Source of the DNA: Octopus vulgaris
Taxonomy: Eukaryota
NCBI GenBank assembly: GCA_951406725.2
Contig: OX597831.1
Coordinates: 13,826,001 to 13,890,000 of the forward strand
Direction of reading: 5' to 3'
DNA length: 64,000 bases
The notes under the pieces were generated by a model. The model saw nothing but the letters and a program-made list of their open reading frames with translations. It was not told the origin of the DNA and made no database searches. Every line of letters starts with the position of its first letter. Position 1 is the stretch's first letter. The position numbers and the translations under genes are program-made. Of this stretch, positions 1,161-57,467 are shown piece after piece.

Positions 1161-1440
1161 GGAGACCATAAAAATGACTTAGAAAAAGCAAATATGATAT
1201 CGAAAGCTTTATAAATCATTCATCAAAATGCTGTAAGATTTCCCTAAATTTTCTGAAAACATTCAATCTCCCTCGTGTTGTCATATCCGTATGTGTTATA
1301 TTATACTCACGGGATTATATGCACACACATACACATGTATACGAACGGAGTGAATTTGTAGTATTGAATTATATACACAGATTAACAAATTAAATTGAAA
1401 GCTTACAACGACGCAAATTGCTTATATTTTAGATACTTAC

Positions 1441-1477
1441 GAACCATGAGAAGAAACCAGCATAGACAATATTTCAT
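1441..1477 (-). CDS. First coding exon of paralog 0 of the small Cys-rich GPI-like family (MKYCLCWFLLMV, phase 1); rest of gene lies left of the window
   Basis: 37 nt ATG...GTTC|gtaagt, same length, donor and flanking sequence as 29374-29410 and 55167-55203. Confidence 0.8.
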
Positions 1478-2059
1478 CCTGGATATTCGTATTAAAGAGA
1501 ACATGTCGAGAAATATTCGCATTACAGTAACCTCGTCATGTATACTTAATATGACATAACATCTGTTGCCATCCTTGAAAGAATATATACATTTGCTGTA
1601 TAGAATATGGCATAGTTTATTACCAGACTCTTACTGTTTTTCCTGATTATGGAAACTATTTTAATGATTTATTTAACATAAGTGAAGCAAGGTTTTCAAG
1701 GTGTAAACCGGAAACTGAAAATGCTTCTCCTTGCAATTTCTTGATGAGAATGGAGAAAATAAAACTCGTAGAGAACTGAAGTCATTTGAAATGGGATGGG
1801 ACATCGTCTTCTGAATCTGTGAGACTCTGGTGCACTCACCATCTAATAGATGCATCCTATTCTCGGAGAGAGGCGGATTGAGAAAGAGGATGTTTTCTGT
1901 TGCAGGTTTTGAAATTACAAAATTAATTGAAAATTTTCAAATTTGGTATATTGCTATAATTTTACCCGCTGAATCCGAATTTGTTCTTCATTTATTTCAG
2001 ATTTTTTTCTTAAATGTTACAGATGTTTAAAATTCAATCCAAACTCCATTCTGATATAA

Positions 2060-6153: not shown

Positions 6154-6254
6154 TCACACCAATATCGGTAGAATAAGAACTGGTAATATACTGTGTGTGG
6201 GTGTAAAACGAGTCACGGCACCACTATGGGATTTGGTTTTTGGCGCGGCTGTGG
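6154..6254 (-). CDS. Gene A last coding exon: (P)TAAPKTKSHSGAVTRFTPTHSILPVLILPILV*, GPI-signal-like tail
   Basis: Acceptor tttattccag, phase 1, stop TGA; homologous to 34105-34199. Confidence 0.85.
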
Positions 6255-7617: not shown

Positions 7618-7709
7618 GAGCGCAGTGATTGTTCACATATTCATCAAGGTACTCATTAACACAATACCAGTGTTTTTTGGCAACACATAATTCATATTCG
7701 TAATAAAAT
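7618..7709 (-). CDS. Gene A exon 4: (Q)FYYEYELCVAKKHWYCVNEYLDEYVNNHCA
   Basis: ttttcag|...GCTC|gtaaga, 92 nt, phase 2-1; homologous to 34946-35037 with 3 conserved Cys. Confidence 0.9.
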
Positions 7710-8408: not shown

Positions 8409-8508
8409 TGACAGTTTTTAGGACCTTTGATTCCTTTGTCATATTTCACGATGTGAGGGCAAACGACATGGGGCGCACATACTCTGACCCGCAGTTCTCT
8501 ATCTTTCA
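8409..8508 (-). CDS. Gene A exon 3: (L)KDRELRVRVCAPHVVCPHIVKYDKGIKGPKNC
   Basis: tattag|...TGTCA|gtacgt, 100 nt, phase 1-2; homologous to 38484-38580. Confidence 0.87.
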
Positions 8509-8945: not shown

Positions 8946-11683
<2,738 letters not shown>

Positions 11684-11792: not shown

Positions 11793-12180
11793 CGCAGGAG
11801 TGGCTGTGAGGTAAGTAGCTTGCTTACGAACCACATGGTTCCGGGTTCAGTCCCACTGCGTGGCACCTTGGGCGAGTGTCTTCTACTATAGCCGCGGGCC
11901 GACCAAAGCCTTGTGAGTGGATTTGGTAGACTGAAACTGAAAGAAGCCTGTCGTATATATGTATCTATGTATGTATGTGTGTGTGTTTGTGTGTCTGTGT
12001 TTGCTTGACAACCGATGCTGGTGTGTTTATGTCCCCGTTACTTAGCGGTTCGGCAAAAGAGACCGATAGAATAAGTACTGGGCTTGCAAAGAATAAGTCC
12101 CGGGGTCGAGTTGCTCAATTAAAGGCCGTGCTCCAGCATGGCCGCTGTCAAATGATTGAAACAAGTAAAAGAGTAAAAGA
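11791..12180 (+). mobile_element. Full-length tRNA-derived SINE
   Basis: Head ggcgcaggagtggctgtgaggtaag..ggttcagtccc, internal (TG)n, tail gctccagcatggcc..tgaaacaagtaaaagag. Confidence 0.9.
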
Positions 12181-12223
12181 GATATATATGTATGTATATA
12201 CATGTATATATATATATATACAT

Positions 12224-14159: not shown

Positions 14160-15932
14160 TTTAGTTTCAGCTCACAAGCTGTGGCCATGCTGGGGCACCG
14201 CCATTTGGTGTTGCTACATGATTTTACTTCACGAATGCTTTTTAGCAACTGACATTTGGTGCATGAGAGAGTTCGATGCAGCTGCCCTCATCTGCACCTC
14301 CTGCCGTGAAGTTGGTTCATCTGGGACACCTGACAGGAAGAGATCCAGATTCATTTTAAAGACATCTGCATCCACCCCATGCAGGTCTCTTAGCTGTGGG
14401 CCTCGGAAGCCCAGGCTATCACAGTATCTTGTTCTACATCTTGATGGAAAATTTGGAGTCCTTGGCACTATGCAGTGGCGCCCAGTTCTGGCATTTGTGT
14501 AACTCTCGATGCCAAAGTTTGGGACAAGTCCTTCTAGGATCTTCCAGATGTATATTATGGCATATCTTTCTCGCCTACGCTCTAAGGAATAGAGTCTCAA
14601 TCTCTTGTGTCTTTCCCAATAGTTTATATGCTGCACAGAGGCTGTCTTCTTTGTGTAGCTTCGTTGGATCGCCTCAAGTTCTGTGATTAACTTGAGACTG
14701 GATGGTGACCATAGCTGAGAGCAATAGTCAAAGTGGCTTAGTACAAGTGTCCTCCAGAGGACCATCATGGTTTCCTGGTCTCTTGTTCTAAAGGTTCTAA
14801 GAATCCATCCGGTCAGCCGCCTACATTTCATTGCCAATTTAGCAACATGCACATGAAAGGTTGCATCATCACTCATGTAAATACCCAGGTCTCGCACTGA
14901 TTGTGCCTCTGGGATTGCAATCCCTCCAGGTCCAGTGTATTTATTGGGTATTGCATTTAGTTTTGCATGCTGATAGTATAAAGCTTGAAACTTTTCAGCA
15001 TTGAACTGCATGCTATTCTTTTCAGCCCACTTGTATATTTTGTCCAGCTCACATTGCAGGTGCTTAGTGTCTTCGGGGTTCTGTATTGCCTGTGAAACTT
15101 TTGTATCATCTGCATAACTTGTGATCGTGGCTCTCTGCGTGGCTGAGGGCATGTCTGAGAGGGCCATTATGAACAGTAGTGGTCCCAGAACAGTGCCTTG
15201 CGGAACACCACTCACTATTTGCGTGTTAATGGAAGTGGACCCATTGGCTACTACCACCTGACTTCTATTTTTCAGAAAGTCATGAAGCCATTCTCCCAAT
15301 TTTCCAACTATGCCAAGATCACGCAGTTTGTTACATATTATTCCATGATCGACTTTATCAAAGGCCTTTGCAAAGTCGAGCTATATGACTTCCACATGTG
15401 AGTGGTTGAGCGGTCGTTTCAGCACCCAGTCATAGTGTTGTAGGAGCTGAGTTAAGCAGCTTCTTCCTGGTCGGAAACCATGTTGGGTGTCAGGTAGCAA
15501 GTCATTTTCTTCAAGGAAGGTGATTAGTTTCCTTCTGACTATTCGTTCCATGACCTTGCTGATGTGTGAGGTCAGAGATATAGGTCTGTAGTTCTTGGCC
15601 TCCGCTCTGCTACCTCCTTTATGAATAGGACATATTTTACCTTCCTTCAGTTTTCTTGGAAGTTTGCCAGTTGCAAGGAAGCTCTGAAAGAGGAACTGTA
15701 GTGGTCTTGCTAGGACTCTCTTACATACTTTTAGAAGGATTGCTGGGAATCCATCGGGGCCAGTAGCTGAGTTTGTTTTCATTTCATCAATAGCCTTTAT
15801 TACATCGTCTTCCTTTATATTGATGTAATTAATCATCGCTGCCTCTGATTTTATATCTGCAGTGGTAAAGAAGTCAGTTGGATTGCTGACTTGAAAATGC
15901 CCTAGGGGTGGAGTGAAAATACTCCTGAATTG

Positions 15933-15937
<5 letters not shown>
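14160..15937 (-). mobile_element. 5'-truncated CR1/L2-group LINE (RT and C-terminus, disrupted)
   Basis: YRPISLTS, QHGFR, GVPQGTVLGPLLF, YADDTK, LYSLERRRERY. Confidence 0.93.
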
Positions 15938-15986
<49 letters not shown>

Positions 15987-15989
<3 letters not shown>

Positions 15990-16135
15990 CTCTCCTTGTT
16001 TTTTCCGTGTCCCTTTTTGTAGAAGAGCGTAGGCTCGAAACGTAAAAGACTTTTTCTATTCCTGAGCGTTATACTAATACATCTGTTTGTTTTGTACACC
16101 ACCTGTCTTCGTCTTTTGTTTTTTTCGTAAACTCC
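15987..16135 (+). mobile_element. Short TA-flanked repeat with hammerhead-like motif; inverted copy at 39303-39435
   Basis: gtagaagagcgtaggctcgaaacgtaaaag; reverse complement of 39303-39435. Confidence 0.7.
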
Positions 16136-18878: not shown

Positions 18879-19526
18879 AGCAAGAAGTAAATTATCCATC
18901 ACAGTTTATATACACGAAGAAAAGGTCACATACTTTTGTAGTACCGTTGTTGTTCTTCGATCGATTTGCCTACAATTTAAAAGAAAGGAAAAAATATATG
19001 TATATATGTATATATGCATGTATGTATGTGTGTATATATATATAAAACTGAAATGCGAAATGTTTGATTGTCTCATTTTGCGATTGGAACGGATTAAGTG
19101 GCACTAGATGGGATTGGATTGGCTCTAAAATTTACAGGGACATGTAAAAAGAAGCGAGGAAGTGAGTTGACTAGGTTAGAAACCTCTCAGAAGCTGTGGT
19201 TACTAGGGCACCAAAACCCACACTTTGACAAGTGTTAGTCGTTTCCCACTTTCGCATATCAGTCTGTCTTCCTGCATCTCTCTCTCTCTTTCTTTCCTTC
19301 CCTCCACACTCTCTATAACGACGGTTGACAGCTTCGCCGGCTTTATGTCTCACTTTTCTCCCTCCACCTCTCTCACTATACGTCTGTCTGTGTCTATTGA
19401 GAGAAAGCCTTGACAGCCGCAAAGTTTTAAATATTCCCGCTACAGGTCTTTTAGAACGGTGAATTATTATCGCCCACCACCACCGCACAATCACAAAAGA
19501 TGTTATTAATCAGATATATTATGTTA

Positions 19527-25133: not shown

Positions 25134-25412
25134 GTGTACATATGTGTATTTGTGTGTGTGTTTATGCGAACGTGTATAAGCGATGCAATAAATTTATGAA
25201 TTACAATATATAAATGTAACTAAACACTAACAAGTTAAAATATAATACGAAACTATATATTATTAATAACAAGTGTATATACCGTATCCCATTATTTATT
25301 GTAAGGAAAAGTTTACTAACCACGAAGTCTCTCGCCTTCCGCTGTGGAAAACAAGAAATTGCAACAAAATGAAAGAGGCATAGTATACAAATAAATAAAT
25401 ATATATGCATAC

Positions 25413-27599: not shown

Positions 27600-27673
<74 letters not shown>

Positions 27674-27805
27674 GGTGTGGGTGTTTGTAAGTGTCCCTGC
27701 AATGTGTATGTATCTATCGCGCATTCAATCGGTTCCACAAATTACAGAACTTTAAAACAGATACTCAGCTTTAAACAATATCTGTTTTCACTATGATAGA
27801 CTTAC

Positions 27806-27844
27806 AAAGCCAGTGTGCATCCCAGCATGGCCACAAACTAATAT
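27806..27844 (-). CDS. Gene A exon 2: (H)ISLWPCWDAHWL
   Basis: ctttttacacgtttcag|39 nt|gtaagt, phase 1-1; homologous to 52661-52699. Confidence 0.75.
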
Positions 27845-28828
27845 CTGAAACGTGTAAAAAGAATAAAGGCATAATTAATATATTTAATAAGATGAGTCAA
27901 AGTTAAAAATAATAAAAGACACACCGAACACAATTATTTAGATTAATATGAATACGACTATCATTGTTTATGAGAAATATAACAGTGTGAGATTGTTTCG
28001 TATAAATCTTTTATGACAGTTGCTCCTTTCTTCATCGTTAACAAAATAAAAAATTCAGTTATTTAACCTGTTTTCACATCTAAGTTTCAAAATTTAACGA
28101 TACTTACTTCGGAATTTTGAGAAGAATTAAGCCCTTTTTTTATAGCACATGTCAACGTGCTAAATTTTTCAACTCGGCAAAATGACTCGCATCTATCTGA
28201 GAATTTCATTTCATTGGTTTATCCTTATTTTACACAGGAACAAGTGTTTTTGGAACAACATTGTATATCAATGTGTAGATACTGCCAATAAGACTAGATG
28301 TGTTTTTTTTAGATGCTACTTGCAATGATTTCAAATTTTCTAGCTTACATAAACTCAGTAAGAAATTTAAGTCGGAAGGCAAGACTTTCTAGCACATCGT
28401 TGTCTACAATAATTTGGATTTTAAAGGATTTAGTTGACTGCAACAGCAAATGATCGCTCGTACAACGTATAAAACTGTATAGTTGTTATTACAATAATGG
28501 CGGCTACTTATGCATTGCAGGGATTATGACGAAGTAGTAAGTGCTTTTTTGTGAATATGATGTAATGCAACTTTAACCAAGCATGTAACTTCTTTCTCCT
28601 GCCTCATTTCAGCTTTTTTTTTATCGCACTCTTCATTATTTCTGCTTTTTCCTTTCATCAAATTCCATCACAATTCTACGTGTATGTATTGCTTGTGTGT
28701 GTACATATATACTTGATATAATAAACCTCGACCTTAATATCGTGCTATGGTATTTGTCTAAGTGAATATGTATCTGTACCTACATAAATGTGTGCGTGCG
28801 TGTGTGTATGTGGTTGGTTATCTGTAAC

Positions 28829-43884: not shown

Positions 43885-44265
43885 GGGTAATACCAGAACT
43901 GGGCGCCACTGCGTGGTGCCTGGGACTCCAAACCTGCCATCAAGATGTAGGACAAGATTCTGTGATAGCCTGGGCTTCCGAGGCCCACAGCTCTTCAATA
44001 TCCTCCCGAAGAACCTGAGAGACCTGCATGGGGTGGATACAGATGTCTTTAAAATGAAGCTGGATCTCTTCCTGTCAGGTGTCCCAGATGAACCAACTTC
44101 ACGGCAGGAGGGGCAGATGAGGGCAGCTGCATCGAACTCTCTCATGCACCAAATAGCAGTTGCTAGAAAGCCTCCATGAAGTGAAACCAAGTAGCAACAC
44201 CAAAAGGCGGTGCCCCAGCATGGCCACAGCTCATAAGCTGAAACTAGAATCAATCAATCAATCAA
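43885..44265 (+). mobile_element. 3' end of the LINE family at 14160-15937
   Basis: High similarity to the reverse complement of 14160-14500; (AATC)n tail. Confidence 0.9.
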
Positions 44266-46724: not shown

Positions 46725-49700
46725 AACTTAGATATGTTTCGACCAAAGATTGGTCCAGGCCATGTCTAGCTTAATAGCACTACCTGATAGGATTATTCGA
46801 ATCCTGTTTAAGTCAGGTTTTGTTTATGGTCCATTCAATTAGTGAGTTTTTGTTGGGTGAGTTGTATCCAATTATGGGTGGCTTATCTGGTATTCTTTGA
46901 AGGAATCTATCCAGACTCCGTTTAAAGTTGATGGGATCCTTTTCCTCTTTGATCTCCCTCGGGACAATGTTAAATAGGGCAGGACCTGTTGAGGAAAAGA
47001 AATTACGTTGTAGTGTACATGTATGCTCTGATCTTGAATTGGGCAGGGGACGTATGGCCCGTGGTCCCAGTCTTGGATGAACCTTGAAGCTAATGTTCAG
47101 GTCGTTTGAGCAAAGTTGGCGGTATATTCTCCACATCGTACAAATGATGTACCGCTCACGGCGACGCTGGAGAGAGTAGAGTTTCAAGGCTTTAAGGCGA
47201 TCCCAATAATCGAGAGCAGCCATGCCTTCAATTCGTTTAGTGAGTGCCCTCTGGGGTGATTCAATCCTCGAGATGTTTTGTCTTGTATGGGGAGACCACA
47301 GTGGGCAGCAGTATTCGAGATGTGGCCGTACAAAGGAGGAGAAAAGTGGTATGATGACACCTTGTTCTCTGGACCGGAAAGTTCTTAAGATCCAGGAACT
47401 CATCCTACGAGCTATATCGACCTTCTTGTTGATGTGTGCATTCCAACTGAGATCGTCATCAACAATAACACCCATGTCTCTGATATTGTTAGAGGCTGTG
47501 AGCGGTTCCCCTGAAGGAAGAGAGTATGGCTGTTTTAGTGAGGAATTACTTCCAAAATGCATCAGCTCAAATTTTCCCTCGTTCAGTTGCATTTTGTTTC
47601 TGTCTGCCCATTGACTCACAGCATATAGATCAGACTGGAGTTGAGTTCGGTCTGCTTCTTCACTGACGATTTGCTGGAGCTTAGTGTTATCAGCAAATAT
47701 TTTCACTTTGCAGTAATGTACGACACTGGAAAGGTCGTTTATGTAAATTACGAAGAGTAGCGGACCCAAGACAGTCCCCTGGGGGACACCGCTGGTGACT
47801 TTTGCTGGGCTTGAGTGGACTCCATCAACTACAACATCTTGTGTTCTATTCGCCAGGAAATACTTGATCCAGTGTAGAACTTTTCTACGGATTCTAACAT
47901 TTGCCAATTTTGAGAGTAGGCTATTATGGTTTACCCTGTCGAACGCTTTACTGAAGTCAAGATATATGACATCAGAGTTCGAACCTGTTCCCAAGGCATT
48001 GAGTACATCTTCAATATGGTGTAAGAGCTGTGTTAGACAGTCCCTGCCACAGCGAAAGCCATGCTGATTTGCATTTAGGAGTTTGTGGGTCTCCAGGAAG
48101 TCAGCTATCCTTGATCTTAACACTCTTTCAAACACTTTAATGATGTGGGAGGTGAGTGAGATTGGGCGATAGTTGACTGCGAGGGATCTGTTTCCCTGTT
48201 TGAAAACAGGGATGACTGACTGAGATAGAAACTGTTTCGGTATACAACCTGCGTCTAACGAATTTCTTCAGAGGTTGGTCAGAGGGACTGCGAGTTGGTG
48301 TCTACATTCATTCAGGAGACTAGCGGGGAATCTATCAGGGCCTACAGCAGAGTAGTATTTGACCTCATTTATTGCTGCTATGATGTCAGTTGCAGTGAAG
48401 GTTATGTCTGAGATTTTATGTTGGGAGTCAACTTCGTTCGCTTCTCTTACGTCAATATCAGTGGGAACACTAAAGACAAAGCAGTATTGTTTCTACAGTA
48501 TTTCTGCCATTTCTTTAGCATCGTGTTGGGGAATGCCGTTATCATCAATCAATGGCCCAATGGGTGAGACAGAGGTTCTATGCTTATTTGCATAAGAATA
48601 GAACACTTTTGGGTTCTGTTTGATGTTTTTGATTACCCACTGTTCCTCCACAGCTCTTTGATTTTCAATGGAGGTTTTCATGTCGGTCTGCAGATGAAGT
48701 TTTTCCAGCTCTAGCCTTTTCATTGTTGTTGAATGTGGATGTTGTATGTGGGAATATTTTAATTGGTTGATTTTTTTGTTGAGTCCTTTGATGTGCCTGA
48801 TGAGTGGGGTTTTTTTTGGGTTTTTAGGGAGCCGGTTTCTGTTTGTGTTAGTAGATTTCGTGGGAGCGTGTTTAGAACATGTATAGGTGACAATGTTGTC
48901 AGTGCTGCCCTGCGGTCTCAATATGGGTAGAATTCCGCTTTGTGGAAGCTTATGTTGTCAAATGAGTGCCATGGAGTGGGATTGGCTGGTTTGTTCTTAT
49001 ATGTCGGGAATTAAAATTGCAGGATACCATGTCGTGGTCTGAGAGGAGAGTTTTTTCAACTGAAATTCTGTGAACGAAGCTAGAGTGATTGGTCAATACC
49101 AGATCCAATATCGTTTTATTCTGTCACGTTGGTTCGAGCACTAGCTGAGTCAGGAAGTATTCATCCATTAGATTAAAGAGCAGTTCTGCTGCTGCTCTAT
49201 CTGATGTAGAGCATTTGCCTAACTTCAGAGTATCTGTGGGCCAGTTCACATGAGGGAGGTTAAAATCGCCCATCACTAGTACGTTTCCGGAGTTGTACTT
49301 CCGATGGAAGGACTTGACTTTGCTAAGGCACTCTTCAAAACACTTTAGAGGTGCTTGGGGAGGCCTGTAAAGACCAACAATGATTATGTCCTTGGCCTTG
49401 TTGAATAGTGATACAGATTCACAATAGCCATTGGAAAATGTCCTTGGCATCAAGTGAAAAGGAGTCATGGATAAAGGTGGCTGCCCCTCCCTTATTTCGG
49501 TCTGTGCGATCCGCACGAACAATGGTGAAATCTTTTATTTTCACCTCGGCGTCCATATGAGTATTGTTCAGGTGAGTCTCGGTAAGGATTAAGAAAGGGA
49601 AGCAATGTGCCGTTTCGGCAAGCCAACTCTCTATATATGGGATCTTCCATTTTTGGGCAATAATTGATGGGTTGATGCCACGTACATTTAACAGGAATGT

Positions 49701-52539: not shown

Positions 52540-52660
52540 GTGTATGTGGTGGGAAGGAGCTATTTGCAATGGTCCCTTCAATGTGCACCTGTTCGACAAG
52601 TTACAGAACGTTAAATCAAGTACTCGAATTCAAACTTTCTTTTTACTATGGTAGACTTAC

Positions 52661-52699
52661 TTGGCCATTCAGCGTTCCAGCATGAATACAAACTAACAT
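52661..52699 (-). CDS. Gene B exon 2: (H)VSLYSCWNAEWP
   Basis: ttctccgtatttcag|39 nt|gtaagt, phase 1-1. Confidence 0.75.
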
Positions 52700-52839
52700 C
52701 TGAAATACGGAGAAGAATATAAAGATAGTGAATATATTAAATAAGATGAGTCAGTGTTGAAAATAATAAAAGACACACTGAACACAATTATTTACATTGA
52801 CACGAATTTGACTCTCATTGTTTATGGTATCTTTACATT

Positions 52840-55166: not shown

Positions 55167-55203
55167 GAACAATGACTAGATACCAGCATTGAAAATATTT
55201 CAT
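55167..55203 (-). CDS. Gene B first coding exon: MKYFQCWYLVIV
   Basis: ATG...GTTC|gtaagt, 37 nt; upstream acceptor ctttcag|55271. Confidence 0.83.
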
Positions 55204-56224: not shown

Positions 56225-56296
<72 letters not shown>

Positions 56297-56297
<1 letters not shown>

Positions 56298-57467
56298 TTG
56301 TAGTTGATGGAGTCCACTCAAACCCAGCAAAAGTCACCAGCGGTGTTCCCCAGGGAACTGTTTTGGGTCCGCTACTCTTCATAATTTACGTAAACGACCT
56401 TTCCAGTGTCGTACATTACTGTAAAGTGAAAATATTCGCTGATGACACTAAGCTCCAGCAAATCGTCAATGAAGAAGCAGACCGAACTCAACTCCAGTCT
56501 GATCTATATGCTGTGAGTCAATGGGCAGACAGAAACAAAATGCAACTGAATGAGGGAAAATTTGAGCTGATGCATTTTAGAAGAAATTCCTCACTAAAAC
56601 AACCATACTCTCTTCCTTCAGGGGAACCGCTCACAGCCTCTAACAATATCAGAGACCTGGGTGTAATTGTTGATGACGATCTCAGTTGGAGTGCACACAT
56701 CAACAAGAAGGTCGATATAGCTCGTAGGATGAGTTCCTGGATCTTAAGAACTTTCCGGTCCAGAGAACAAGGTGTCATCATACCACTTTTTTCCTCCTTT
56801 GTACGGCCACATCTCGAATACTGCTGCCCACTGTGGTCTCCTCACACAAGACAAAACATCTCCAGAATTGAGTCACCCCAGAGGGCTCTCACTAAACGAA
56901 TTGAAGGCATGGCTGCTCTCGATTATTGGGATCGCCTTAAAGCCTTGAAACTTTACTCCCTCCAGCGTCACCGTGAGCGGTACATCATTTGTACGATGTG
57001 GAAAATATACCGCCAACTTTGCCCAAACGATCTAAACATTAGCTTCAAGGTTCATCCAAGACTTGGACCACGGGCTATACGTCCCCTGCCCAATTCAAGA
57101 TCACAACATACATGTACACTGCAACATAATTTCTTTTCCTCAACAGGCCCTGCCCTATTTAACATTGTCCCGAGGGAGATCAAAGAGGAAAAGGATCCCA
57201 TCAACTTTAAACGGAGTCTGGATAGATTCCTTCAAAGAATACCAGATGAGCCACCCATAATTGGATACAACTCACCCAACAAGAACTCACTACTTGAACA
57301 AATATGGATACAACTCACCCAACAAGTACTCACTACTTGAACAAAACTTGACTTAAACAAAATTTGACTTAAACAGGATTCGAATAATCCTATCAGGTGG
57401 TGCTATTAAGTTAGACATGGCCTGGACCAATCTTTGGTCGAAACATATCTAAGTTTATCTAAGTTTA
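56297..57467 (+). mobile_element. 5'-truncated copy of the LINE at 46725-49995, opposite orientation
   Basis: Nearly identical translation; tail aaacatatctaagtttatctaagttt, also present alone at 45038-45092. Confidence 0.95.

What the first reader, a model, noticed from the sequence alone, without database searches (positions are those of the whole stretch)
27690..27870. Exon 2 looks like an exonised antisense SINE tail
Seen: plus-strand cccagcatggccacaaactaatatctgaaacgtgtaaaaagaataaagg (27821-27869) aligns with the SINE 3' tail ctccagcatggccgctgtcaaatgattgaaacaagtaaaagagtaaaag (12131-12179), and weaker SINE-like sequence continues upstream. Read antisense, the A-rich tail supplies the polypyrimidine tract and tttcag acceptor, as in antisense Alu exonisation. 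The same 39-nt phase 1-1 exon is kept in gene B (52661-52699), so the event predates the duplication. It supplies the probable end of the signal peptide and could be skipped in frame.
Basis: partly seen in the sequence, partly recalled or inferred. Interest (0 to 1): 0.7.

Follow-up and report, generated by a model that had tools for sequence, protein, structure and literature searches.

The report
SINE-born exon across octopus gene family
In an octopus, the predicted 39-base second exon of two neighbouring genes is the backwards tail of a very common jumping-DNA repeat, ten more genes of the same cluster carry a matching piece, and it likely supplies the end of the signal that would send these small proteins to the cell surface.

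Summary
Confirmed, and larger than reported. Exon 2 (27844-27806, minus strand) and its copy in gene B (52699-52661) lie in the antisense 3' half of an old tRNA-type SINE. A scores 25.5 bits, E 8.5e-7, with a profile trained on independent loci; B is weak alone, yet 0 of 1000 shuffles reach it. The SINE supplies the pyrimidine tract and AG; its old subfamily has an open phase-1 frame with GT after exactly 39 nt. Octopus bimaculoides RefSeq models of both orthologues include the 13 residues; a second isoform of the A orthologue lacks exactly these. 12 of 21 exon-1 copies in the ~300-kb array carry such an exon, so the event is likely older than the A/B duplication. Paralogues C and D lack it. 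One origin is well supported for nine paralogues, only moderately for A, B and H. Signal-peptide role is predicted, not tested; no direct RNA evidence here. Known mechanism (Alu-type), rarely reported in invertebrates. The scan's look-ups showed no earlier report of it.

The parts
27806..27844 (-). Gene A exon 2, 39 nt, phase 1-1, SINE-derived; encodes ISLWPCWDAHWL
   Evidence: Splice signals and open frame; 12 of 12 residues identical to O. bimaculoides XP_052830380.1
27845..27870 (-). Pyrimidine tract and tttcag acceptor of A exon 2 = reverse complement of the SINE's A-rich tail
27672..27870 (+). Remnant of the 3' half of an old tRNA-type SINE (body in intron 2, tail at the acceptor), next to a (TA)n run at about 27600-27671
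   Evidence: Profile match 27728-27864, E 8.5e-7; body 1-10 of 1000 shuffles
52661..52699 (-). Gene B exon 2, 39 nt, phase 1-1; encodes VSLYSCWNAEWP
   Evidence: 9 of 12 residues identical to XP_014778060.1
52540..52726 (+). Same SINE remnant in gene B, more decayed
   Evidence: 8.7 bits over 52591-52726; 77.6% to A over 241 nt including non-SINE flank
29374..29419 (-). Gene A exon 1, coding part (ATGs at 29419 and 29410): hydrophobic leader
25321..25341 (-). Gene A exon 3, 21 nt, phase 1-1
18934..18969 (-). Gene A exon 4, 36 nt, phase 1-1
8409..8508 (-). Gene A exon 5 (three Cys)
7618..7709 (-). Gene A exon 6 (three Cys)
6154..6254 (-). Gene A exon 7, coding part, hydrophobic C-terminal tail (GPI-signal-like, inferred)
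55167..55203 (-). Gene B exon 1, coding part
43198..43215 (-). Gene B exon 3, 18 nt
41675..41710 (-). Gene B exon 4, 36 nt
38484..38580 (-). Gene B exon 5
34946..35037 (-). Gene B exon 6
34105..34199 (-). Gene B exon 7, coding part
1405..1590 (-). Gene C exon 1 region; this paralogue has no SINE-derived coding exon 2
11797..12181 (+).
34261..34433 (-). A different old SINE in the last intron of B, shared with A (6473-6315), C and D: marks A, B, C, D as one group
44204..44250 (+). 3' end of a LINE that shares the SINE tail (second copy 14204-14161, minus); tested as alternative donor

Best explanation
Exon 2 of genes A and B is a piece of an old SINE lying backwards in intron 1, which was likely spliced into the coding sequence once, early in the growth of this octopus gene cluster, and is predicted to complete the signal peptide. 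Steps. (1) Shown: read antisense, the SINE tail gives a pyrimidine tract plus AG, and the old subfamily continues in an open phase-1 frame (locus L067 reads IGLWPCWGTALK) to a GT after 39 nt. (2) Inferred: about two substitutions turned that weak GT site into gtaagt, giving a frame-keeping cassette after the phase-1 end of exon 1. (3) Shown for O. bimaculoides annotation, inferred for this species: the exon is included, and can be skipped in frame. (4) Inferred: duplication spread it to 12 of 21 copies; C and D lost it and would be cleaved at V-x-G at the exon 1/3 join. (5) Predicted: it lengthens the 11-12 residue hydrophobic leader and places a C-x-G/S cleavage motif at about residue 20-21; in A and B the motif has drifted, so cleavage may fall a few residues later. 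Sub-odds: SINE origin 0.95; spliced coding exon 0.9; A/B share the one origin 0.65; signal-peptide role 0.7.
For: SINE match with independent profile and shuffles. 10 of 10 paralogue exons tested start at the SINE's antisense acceptor, 0 of 500 shuffles each; SINE body follows in the next intron for A, B, H, J1-J4 (0-6 of 500); P and R found by profile, 13.8 and 19.3 bits to the SINE. All 12 have AG, open frame, 3n length (30, 39, 42, 57 nt) and donor; 0 of 133 other SINE copies have all of these (partly circular, since F, G, H, J1-J4 were found by scanning for them). Leave-one-subfamily-out profiles score J, E/F/G and P/R 4.3-6.2 SD above other SINE copies, H 3.1, B 2.7, A 1.7. RefSeq isoforms with and without the 13 residues. 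A exon 2 is 12 of 12 identical to O. bimaculoides against 73 of 123 in the other exons, Fisher p 0.003. A DNA run labelled as a second organism holds 27682-28518 with 13 differences and 2 gaps. The exon remnants in A, B, H, J are 0.33-0.42 diverged from the SINE consensus, more than the last-intron SINE shared by A-D (0.24-0.32).
Against: B exon 2 is not more conserved than the rest of B (9 of 12 against 98 of 120, p 0.83). SINE body not detected for E and G (43 and 369 of 500) and marginal for F (13). Flanks beyond the tail are alike only within A/B and within E/F, not between subfamilies. Shared-substitution test shows no excess between subfamilies (23 of 58), though it also fails on known orthologous copies. 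A and B group with exon-less C and D (96/93), and trees need 3-4 gains or losses; 9 of 21 exon-1 copies show no such exon. The C-x-small motif is inherited from the SINE: 22 of 34 diverged non-exon copies keep each residue, so its retention is weak evidence of selection. A and B read D/N at the would-be -1 position. The RNA support behind the RefSeq models was not seen; the C orthologue also has a micro-exon-skipping isoform, so skipping may be general to these short exons or a mapping effect.
Confidence: 0.6

Rival explanations
1. Repeated exonisation: the A/B ancestor (and perhaps H) exonised its own antisense SINE insertion in intron 1, separately from the event shared by E, F, G, J1-J4, P and R. 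C and D never had it. This is closest to the first reader's version.
For: A/B sit with exon-less C/D (shared last-intron SINE). No cross-subfamily flank similarity. A scores better to the SINE itself (21.6 bits) than to the other paralogues' exons (13.7). The SINE is abundant (42 hits in 200 kb) and pre-adapted: 45 of 57 copies keep the AG; C and O carry separate, unexonised antisense copies in intron 1.
Against: Same intron, orientation, SINE part and acceptor in all 12; B scores 18.3 bits to the other exons against 4.8 to the SINE, z 2.7; A/B remnants look at least as old as an insertion shared by A-D; 0 of 133 other copies made the full step.
Confidence: 0.28
2. Chance likeness: an ordinary micro-exon whose pyrimidine tract resembles any reversed A-rich tail.
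For: B alone is not significant in a 264-kb search and is close to the best control acceptor, 34 against 30.
Against: A E 8.5e-7 over 137 nt; match runs into the exon (25 of 30 bases) and into the next intron; 10 of 10 paralogues tested match at the same register.
Confidence: 0.04
3. The donor element was the partner LINE, whose 3' end shares the tail, not the SINE.
For: Two LINE ends in the window share the tail.
Against: Over 37 nt A matches the SINE consensuses 30 and 29, the LINE ends 26 and 25; upstream sequence matches SINE body, not LINE (46-498 of 500 shuffles reach the LINE scores).
Confidence: 0.03
4. The SINE remnant is real but is not spliced in this species, or is a minor isoform without function.
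For: Inclusion rests on annotation of another species; B exon 2 shows no extra conservation.
Against: Splice sites, frame and 12 of 12 residues kept in A between two species whose other exons differ by 40%; the only B-orthologue model found includes it.
Confidence: 0.05

Closest known systems
Antisense SINE (Alu, B1, MIR) exonisation in mammals (Sela et al. 2010, PMC2911107, passages read)
   Same: Antisense intronic SINE; A-rich tail becomes the pyrimidine tract; exon can be skipped.
   Different: A mollusc; the paper found only anecdotal cases in invertebrates (12 in Ciona, none in fly and worm). Here the exon is in frame, kept between species and present in 12 paralogues.
Alu elements in main coding isoforms, including the NPIPB family (PMC6924539, passages read)
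   Same: SINE-derived coding sequence fixed in a duplicated, lineage-restricted family; frame-preserving.
   Different: Most of those 11 cases extend existing exons or C-termini; only BEND2 and NLRP1 are new exons. Here a whole new exon sits in the secretory leader.
IL15RA TE-derived exon behind the signal peptide (review PMC13709765, passage read)
   Same: TE exon inserted near the N-terminal leader of a surface protein, frame kept.
   Different: There a minor isoform between signal peptide and domain; here predicted to be part of the signal peptide.
Octopus tRNA-derived SINEs of Ohshima and Okada 1994 (OR1 named in PMC4824008 passages; OK and OR2 recalled)
   Same: Octopus SINE with tRNA-like head (recalled resemblance), central microsatellite and LINE-shared tail.
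   Different: No reference consensus was available, so the family name is not assigned.
Neuritin-like small Cys-rich GPI-anchored proteins (host gene; lead only)
   Same: Leader, six Cys, helical model, hydrophobic tail; ESM feature score 0.85 to PF15056, 0.92 and 0.90 to unnamed mollusc clusters.
   Different: No Pfam match, no clear fold match.

Membership tests
Antisense SINE exonisation | Exon and splice site align significantly to a SINE, antisense to the gene | tested here: met
Antisense SINE exonisation | Pyrimidine tract and AG come from the A-rich tail | tested here: met
   45 of 57 independent copies carry the same AG
Antisense SINE exonisation | Donor inside SINE sequence, activated by mutation | tested here: met
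   SINE body continues past the donor; old consensus has GT after 39 nt, 4 of 14 old-type copies keep it; exact mutational route not resolved
Antisense SINE exonisation | Exon included in mRNA | tested here: inconclusive
   Included in O. bimaculoides RefSeq models; no direct junction evidence obtained for this species
Antisense SINE exonisation | Alternative (skippable) exon | tested here: inconclusive
   Annotated X1/X2 pair differs by these 13 residues; underlying reads not seen
Antisense SINE exonisation | Absent in lineages or copies without the insertion | tested here: inconclusive
   C and D lack both exon and remnant, but no empty site could be aligned and no non-Octopus homologue was found
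Antisense SINE exonisation | Target-site duplication around the insertion | not tested
   5' half missing and copy 33-42% diverged
Signal peptide c-region | Small residues at -3 and -1 after a hydrophobic core, cleavage near residue 20 | tested here: inconclusive
   9 of 12 exons read C-x-G/S/C, P reads L-x-G, A and B read C-W-D/N; rule scan of RefSeq proteins; no predictor available
Named Octopus SINE family (OK, OR1, OR2) | Identity to the published consensus | not testable with these tools
   No repeat library held
Neuritin (PF15056) | Pfam NRN1 match or fold match | tested here: inconclusive
   0 Pfam families at E up to 10; feature score 0.85 is a lead only; model pLDDT 64.9 gave no clear structural match

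The most novel reading that the evidence does not exclude
One backwards SINE insertion donated a ready-made signal-peptidase motif and became the standard second half of the secretory leader at the root of an Octopus-restricted array of about 21 cell-surface protein genes; skipping it would switch leader length or targeting. The same SINE, in roughly half a million copies with a built-in antisense acceptor, would be an Alu-like exon source in octopus genomes.
Probability: 0.35. Interest if true: 0.75.

Novelty: new member of a known kind. Interest (0 to 1): 0.58.

Why it matters
TE exonisation is described as very low in invertebrates and tied to long introns (PMC2911107). Octopuses have long, SINE-rich introns, so this is a test of that idea outside vertebrates. 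The case is unusually legible: the donor SINE frame, exonised copies in 12 paralogues, exon-less paralogues, unexonised antisense copies in the same intron (C, O) and an annotated skip isoform lie in one 300-kb array. If the leader role holds, a SINE built part of a protein-targeting signal for a whole lineage-restricted family.

Tried and rejected
RNA: the run search listed no holder on record as RNA (no RNA holder listed). Seven presumed RNA runs laid as contigs (3, 4, of 22 such runs listed) gave no cover of gene A exon 1; the 119 pieces laid sit at 27820-27867, are under 90% alike, and the loose ends shown are SINE sequence, so they come from other loci. No verdict on expression. My first reading, a new exon confined to the A/B lineage, was dropped when one search showed the exon in E, F, G, H, J1-J4. 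An antisense SINE in intron 1 of C as orthologue of the exon copy: rejected (flanks about 50% alike, 107 bits, stop in phase 1). A 'micro-exon' 10 kb left of the window (Z): an A/B-like intron-2 relic without the exon. Donor made by deletion down to the SINE's own GTAAG site: considered, collinear length fits better. Shared-substitution test for one origin: no power. Empty-site search with the A/B flank: only A and B at E under 0.2. Homologues outside Octopus: 3 hits among 1.84 billion representatives, all O. bimaculoides; J/H exon-6 search found none among 626 candidates. Fold searches: no match at E 0.001, best Z 5.1. Literature: no paper names the two loci; searches listed no octopus SINE exonisation case (listings only; subscription papers not covered). 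In one search the A exon 5 frame was mis-set; corrected, whose numbers are used.

Full report
Setting. The window lies in a 2.8-Gb genome. The only named protein matches are Octopus bimaculoides RefSeq models, 59-82% identical outside exon 2, so the source is taken as another octopus species (inference). It holds two complete minus-strand genes, A and B, the first exon of C and the 3' end of D. Each has a 12-residue hydrophobic exon 1, phase-1 micro-exons, two Cys-rich exons and a last exon with a hydrophobic tail. A and B are the closest pair in all six regions compared.

Observation. The quoted 49-mer aligns with the SINE at 12131-12179 at 36 of 48 columns. A genome search with 27675-27960 returned 36 of 36 candidates: self, gene B and 34 short matches centred on the tail; of the 18 inspected, 14 show SINE body upstream by eye. 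To avoid circularity I trained profiles on 33 loci not found with the exon: 22 old-type and 35 young copies. The old profile matches A over 27728-27864 (25.5 bits, E 8.5e-7 in 264 kb); B gives 5.1 and 8.7 bits (E 1.5 and 0.13). Shuffles: tails 0 of 1000 for both genes, bodies 1-10 of 1000; 19 other family acceptors score 13-30 against 53 (A) and 34 (B). Two LINE ends share the tail, but A and B match the SINE better and the upstream part matches only the SINE.

Is it an exon? Both copies have tttcag, 39 open bases in phase 1 and gtaagt. The O. bimaculoides B orthologue XP_014778060.1 includes the 13 residues. The A orthologue has two isoforms, XP_052830380.1 with and XP_052830381.1 without exactly these residues. 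That such isoform models rest on transcript alignments is recalled; I did not see the reads. A exon 2 is 12 of 12 identical between species against 73 of 123 elsewhere (p 0.003); B is 9 of 12 against 98 of 120 (p 0.83). A DNA run under another organism label holds the locus at about 98%. If this species belongs to the vulgaris-sinensis clade, which is not established here, the split from O. bimaculoides is about 34 million years (PMC10700109, passages), a minimum age for both genes and the exon.

How the exon could arise. Antisense, 45 of 57 independent copies keep the tract and AG; young copies mostly have a stop at codon 2 of the phase-1 frame, while 10 of 57 keep AG plus 12 open codons, and none has an in-frame strong donor. 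The old consensus reads open in phase 1 and has GT after 39 nt; 4 of 14 old-type copies keep that GT. So an old copy behind a phase-1 exon needed only a stronger donor. Six of the first seven residues of A exon 2 match the SINE frame read in locus L067.

The family. Profiles found 17 exon-1 copies in 264 kb and 4 more in a further 400 kb, bounding the array at about -115 kb to +183 kb in window coordinates. Twelve have an exon that starts at the SINE's antisense acceptor: A, B, E, H, R (39 nt), F, P (42), G (57), J1-J4 (30). For the 10 tested, tails beat 500 of 500 shuffles; bodies are seen in A, B, H, J1-J4, marginal in F, not in E and G. All 12 have AG, open frame and donor; 0 of 133 other copies do (partly circular for the seven found by that scan). 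Nine copies show no such exon; for C and D the O. bimaculoides models agree. G and N have altered start codons and may be pseudogenes.

One origin or several. Leave-one-out profiles tie J, E/F/G and P/R together beyond SINE ancestry (z 4.3-6.2); H 3.1, B 2.7 and A 1.7 are weaker. Against one origin: no flank likeness across subfamilies, no excess of shared substitutions (a test that also fails on known orthologous copies), and A/B group with C/D at 96/93, with 3-4 changes needed and one origin not excluded on the exon-1 tree. For it: same intron, orientation and register, and remnants at least as diverged as the last-intron SINE that A-D share (detection limits bias this comparison). I put 0.65 on A/B sharing the single event, with loss in C/D.

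Function. Exon 1 gives 11-12 mostly hydrophobic residues. In 9 of 12 paralogues exon 2 reads C-x-G/S/C at codons 6-8, about residue 20-21, the (-3,-1) pattern of signal peptidase (rule recalled). The pattern is already in the SINE and 22 of 34 diverged non-exon copies keep each residue, so retention alone proves little. A and B read C-W-D/N-A; by the rule the A orthologue would be cut at residue 28 with the exon and 13-15 without (counted from the second Met), and the C (X1) and D orthologues at V-x-G, residue 14. So in A the exon likely lengthens or shifts the leader and is not strictly required. The host protein has no Pfam match, a helical model of pLDDT 64.9, no clear fold match and a neuritin lead only.

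Known and new. The mechanism is the Alu-type one described by Sela et al., who found only anecdotal invertebrate cases (PMC2911107, passages). Fixed SINE coding exons are rare even in humans (PMC6924539, passages); a TE exon behind a signal peptide is known for IL15RA (PMC13709765, passage). PMC4824008 (passages) names octopus OR1 but gave no means to assign this SINE. Searches (listings) showed no report of this case; two searches served for background. Earlier scan notes did not bear on it.

Verdict. Observation confirmed; interpretation supported and extended. New member of a known kind, interest 0.58; the open points are direct splicing evidence, cleavage site and single versus repeated origin.

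Noticed in passing
G000:C18 about 13.71-14.01 Mb (window -115 kb to +183 kb): Tandem array of about 21 small genes with leader, micro-exons, six Cys and hydrophobic tail, both orientations; no homologue found outside Octopus bimaculoides.
   Followed up: partly
Young SINE copies genome-wide, e.g. window 12002-12179: Antisense they carry a ready cryptic exon: 24 of 55 copies have AG plus GTAAG 63-70 nt later (16 at 68 nt, frame-shifting). 42 hits in 200 kb of random loci suggest about half a million copies. Possible source of poison exons.
   Followed up: partly
window 34433-34261, 6473-6315, 6696-6562; L021 1381-1239; L031 2575-2410: One old sense-oriented SINE shared just upstream of the last exon in A, B, C and D: a marker of their common ancestry.
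   Followed up: yes
window 44204-44250 (+) and 14204-14161 (-): LINE 3' ends share the SINE tail: likely partner LINE.
   Followed up: partly
L021 9222-9389 (window -778 to -611) and L022 5997-6183 (window -14003 to -13817): Antisense SINE copies in intron 1 of paralogues C and O that did not become coding exons: natural controls.
   Followed up: partly
L022 9782-9913 (window -10218 to -10087): Intergenic relic 69% like the start of A intron 2, without exon 2: probably the remains of a deleted A/B-like copy.
   Followed up: partly
RefSeq LOC106874739 (P0001, P0004): The two 'isoforms' are orthologues of two different paralogues, B and D, merged under one gene id.
   Followed up: yes
L039 near 3210 (gene G) and L023 near 6270 (gene N): Start codon altered in both copies; G also has a lengthened 57-nt exon 2: possible pseudogenes.
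   Followed up: no
window 46735-47837 and 56295-57445; 29867-30985; 14229-16055; 9748-11530; 40399-41297: Retrotransposon reverse-transcriptase fragments and a mariner-like transposase remnant in introns and spacers (names by recalled motifs).
   Followed up: no
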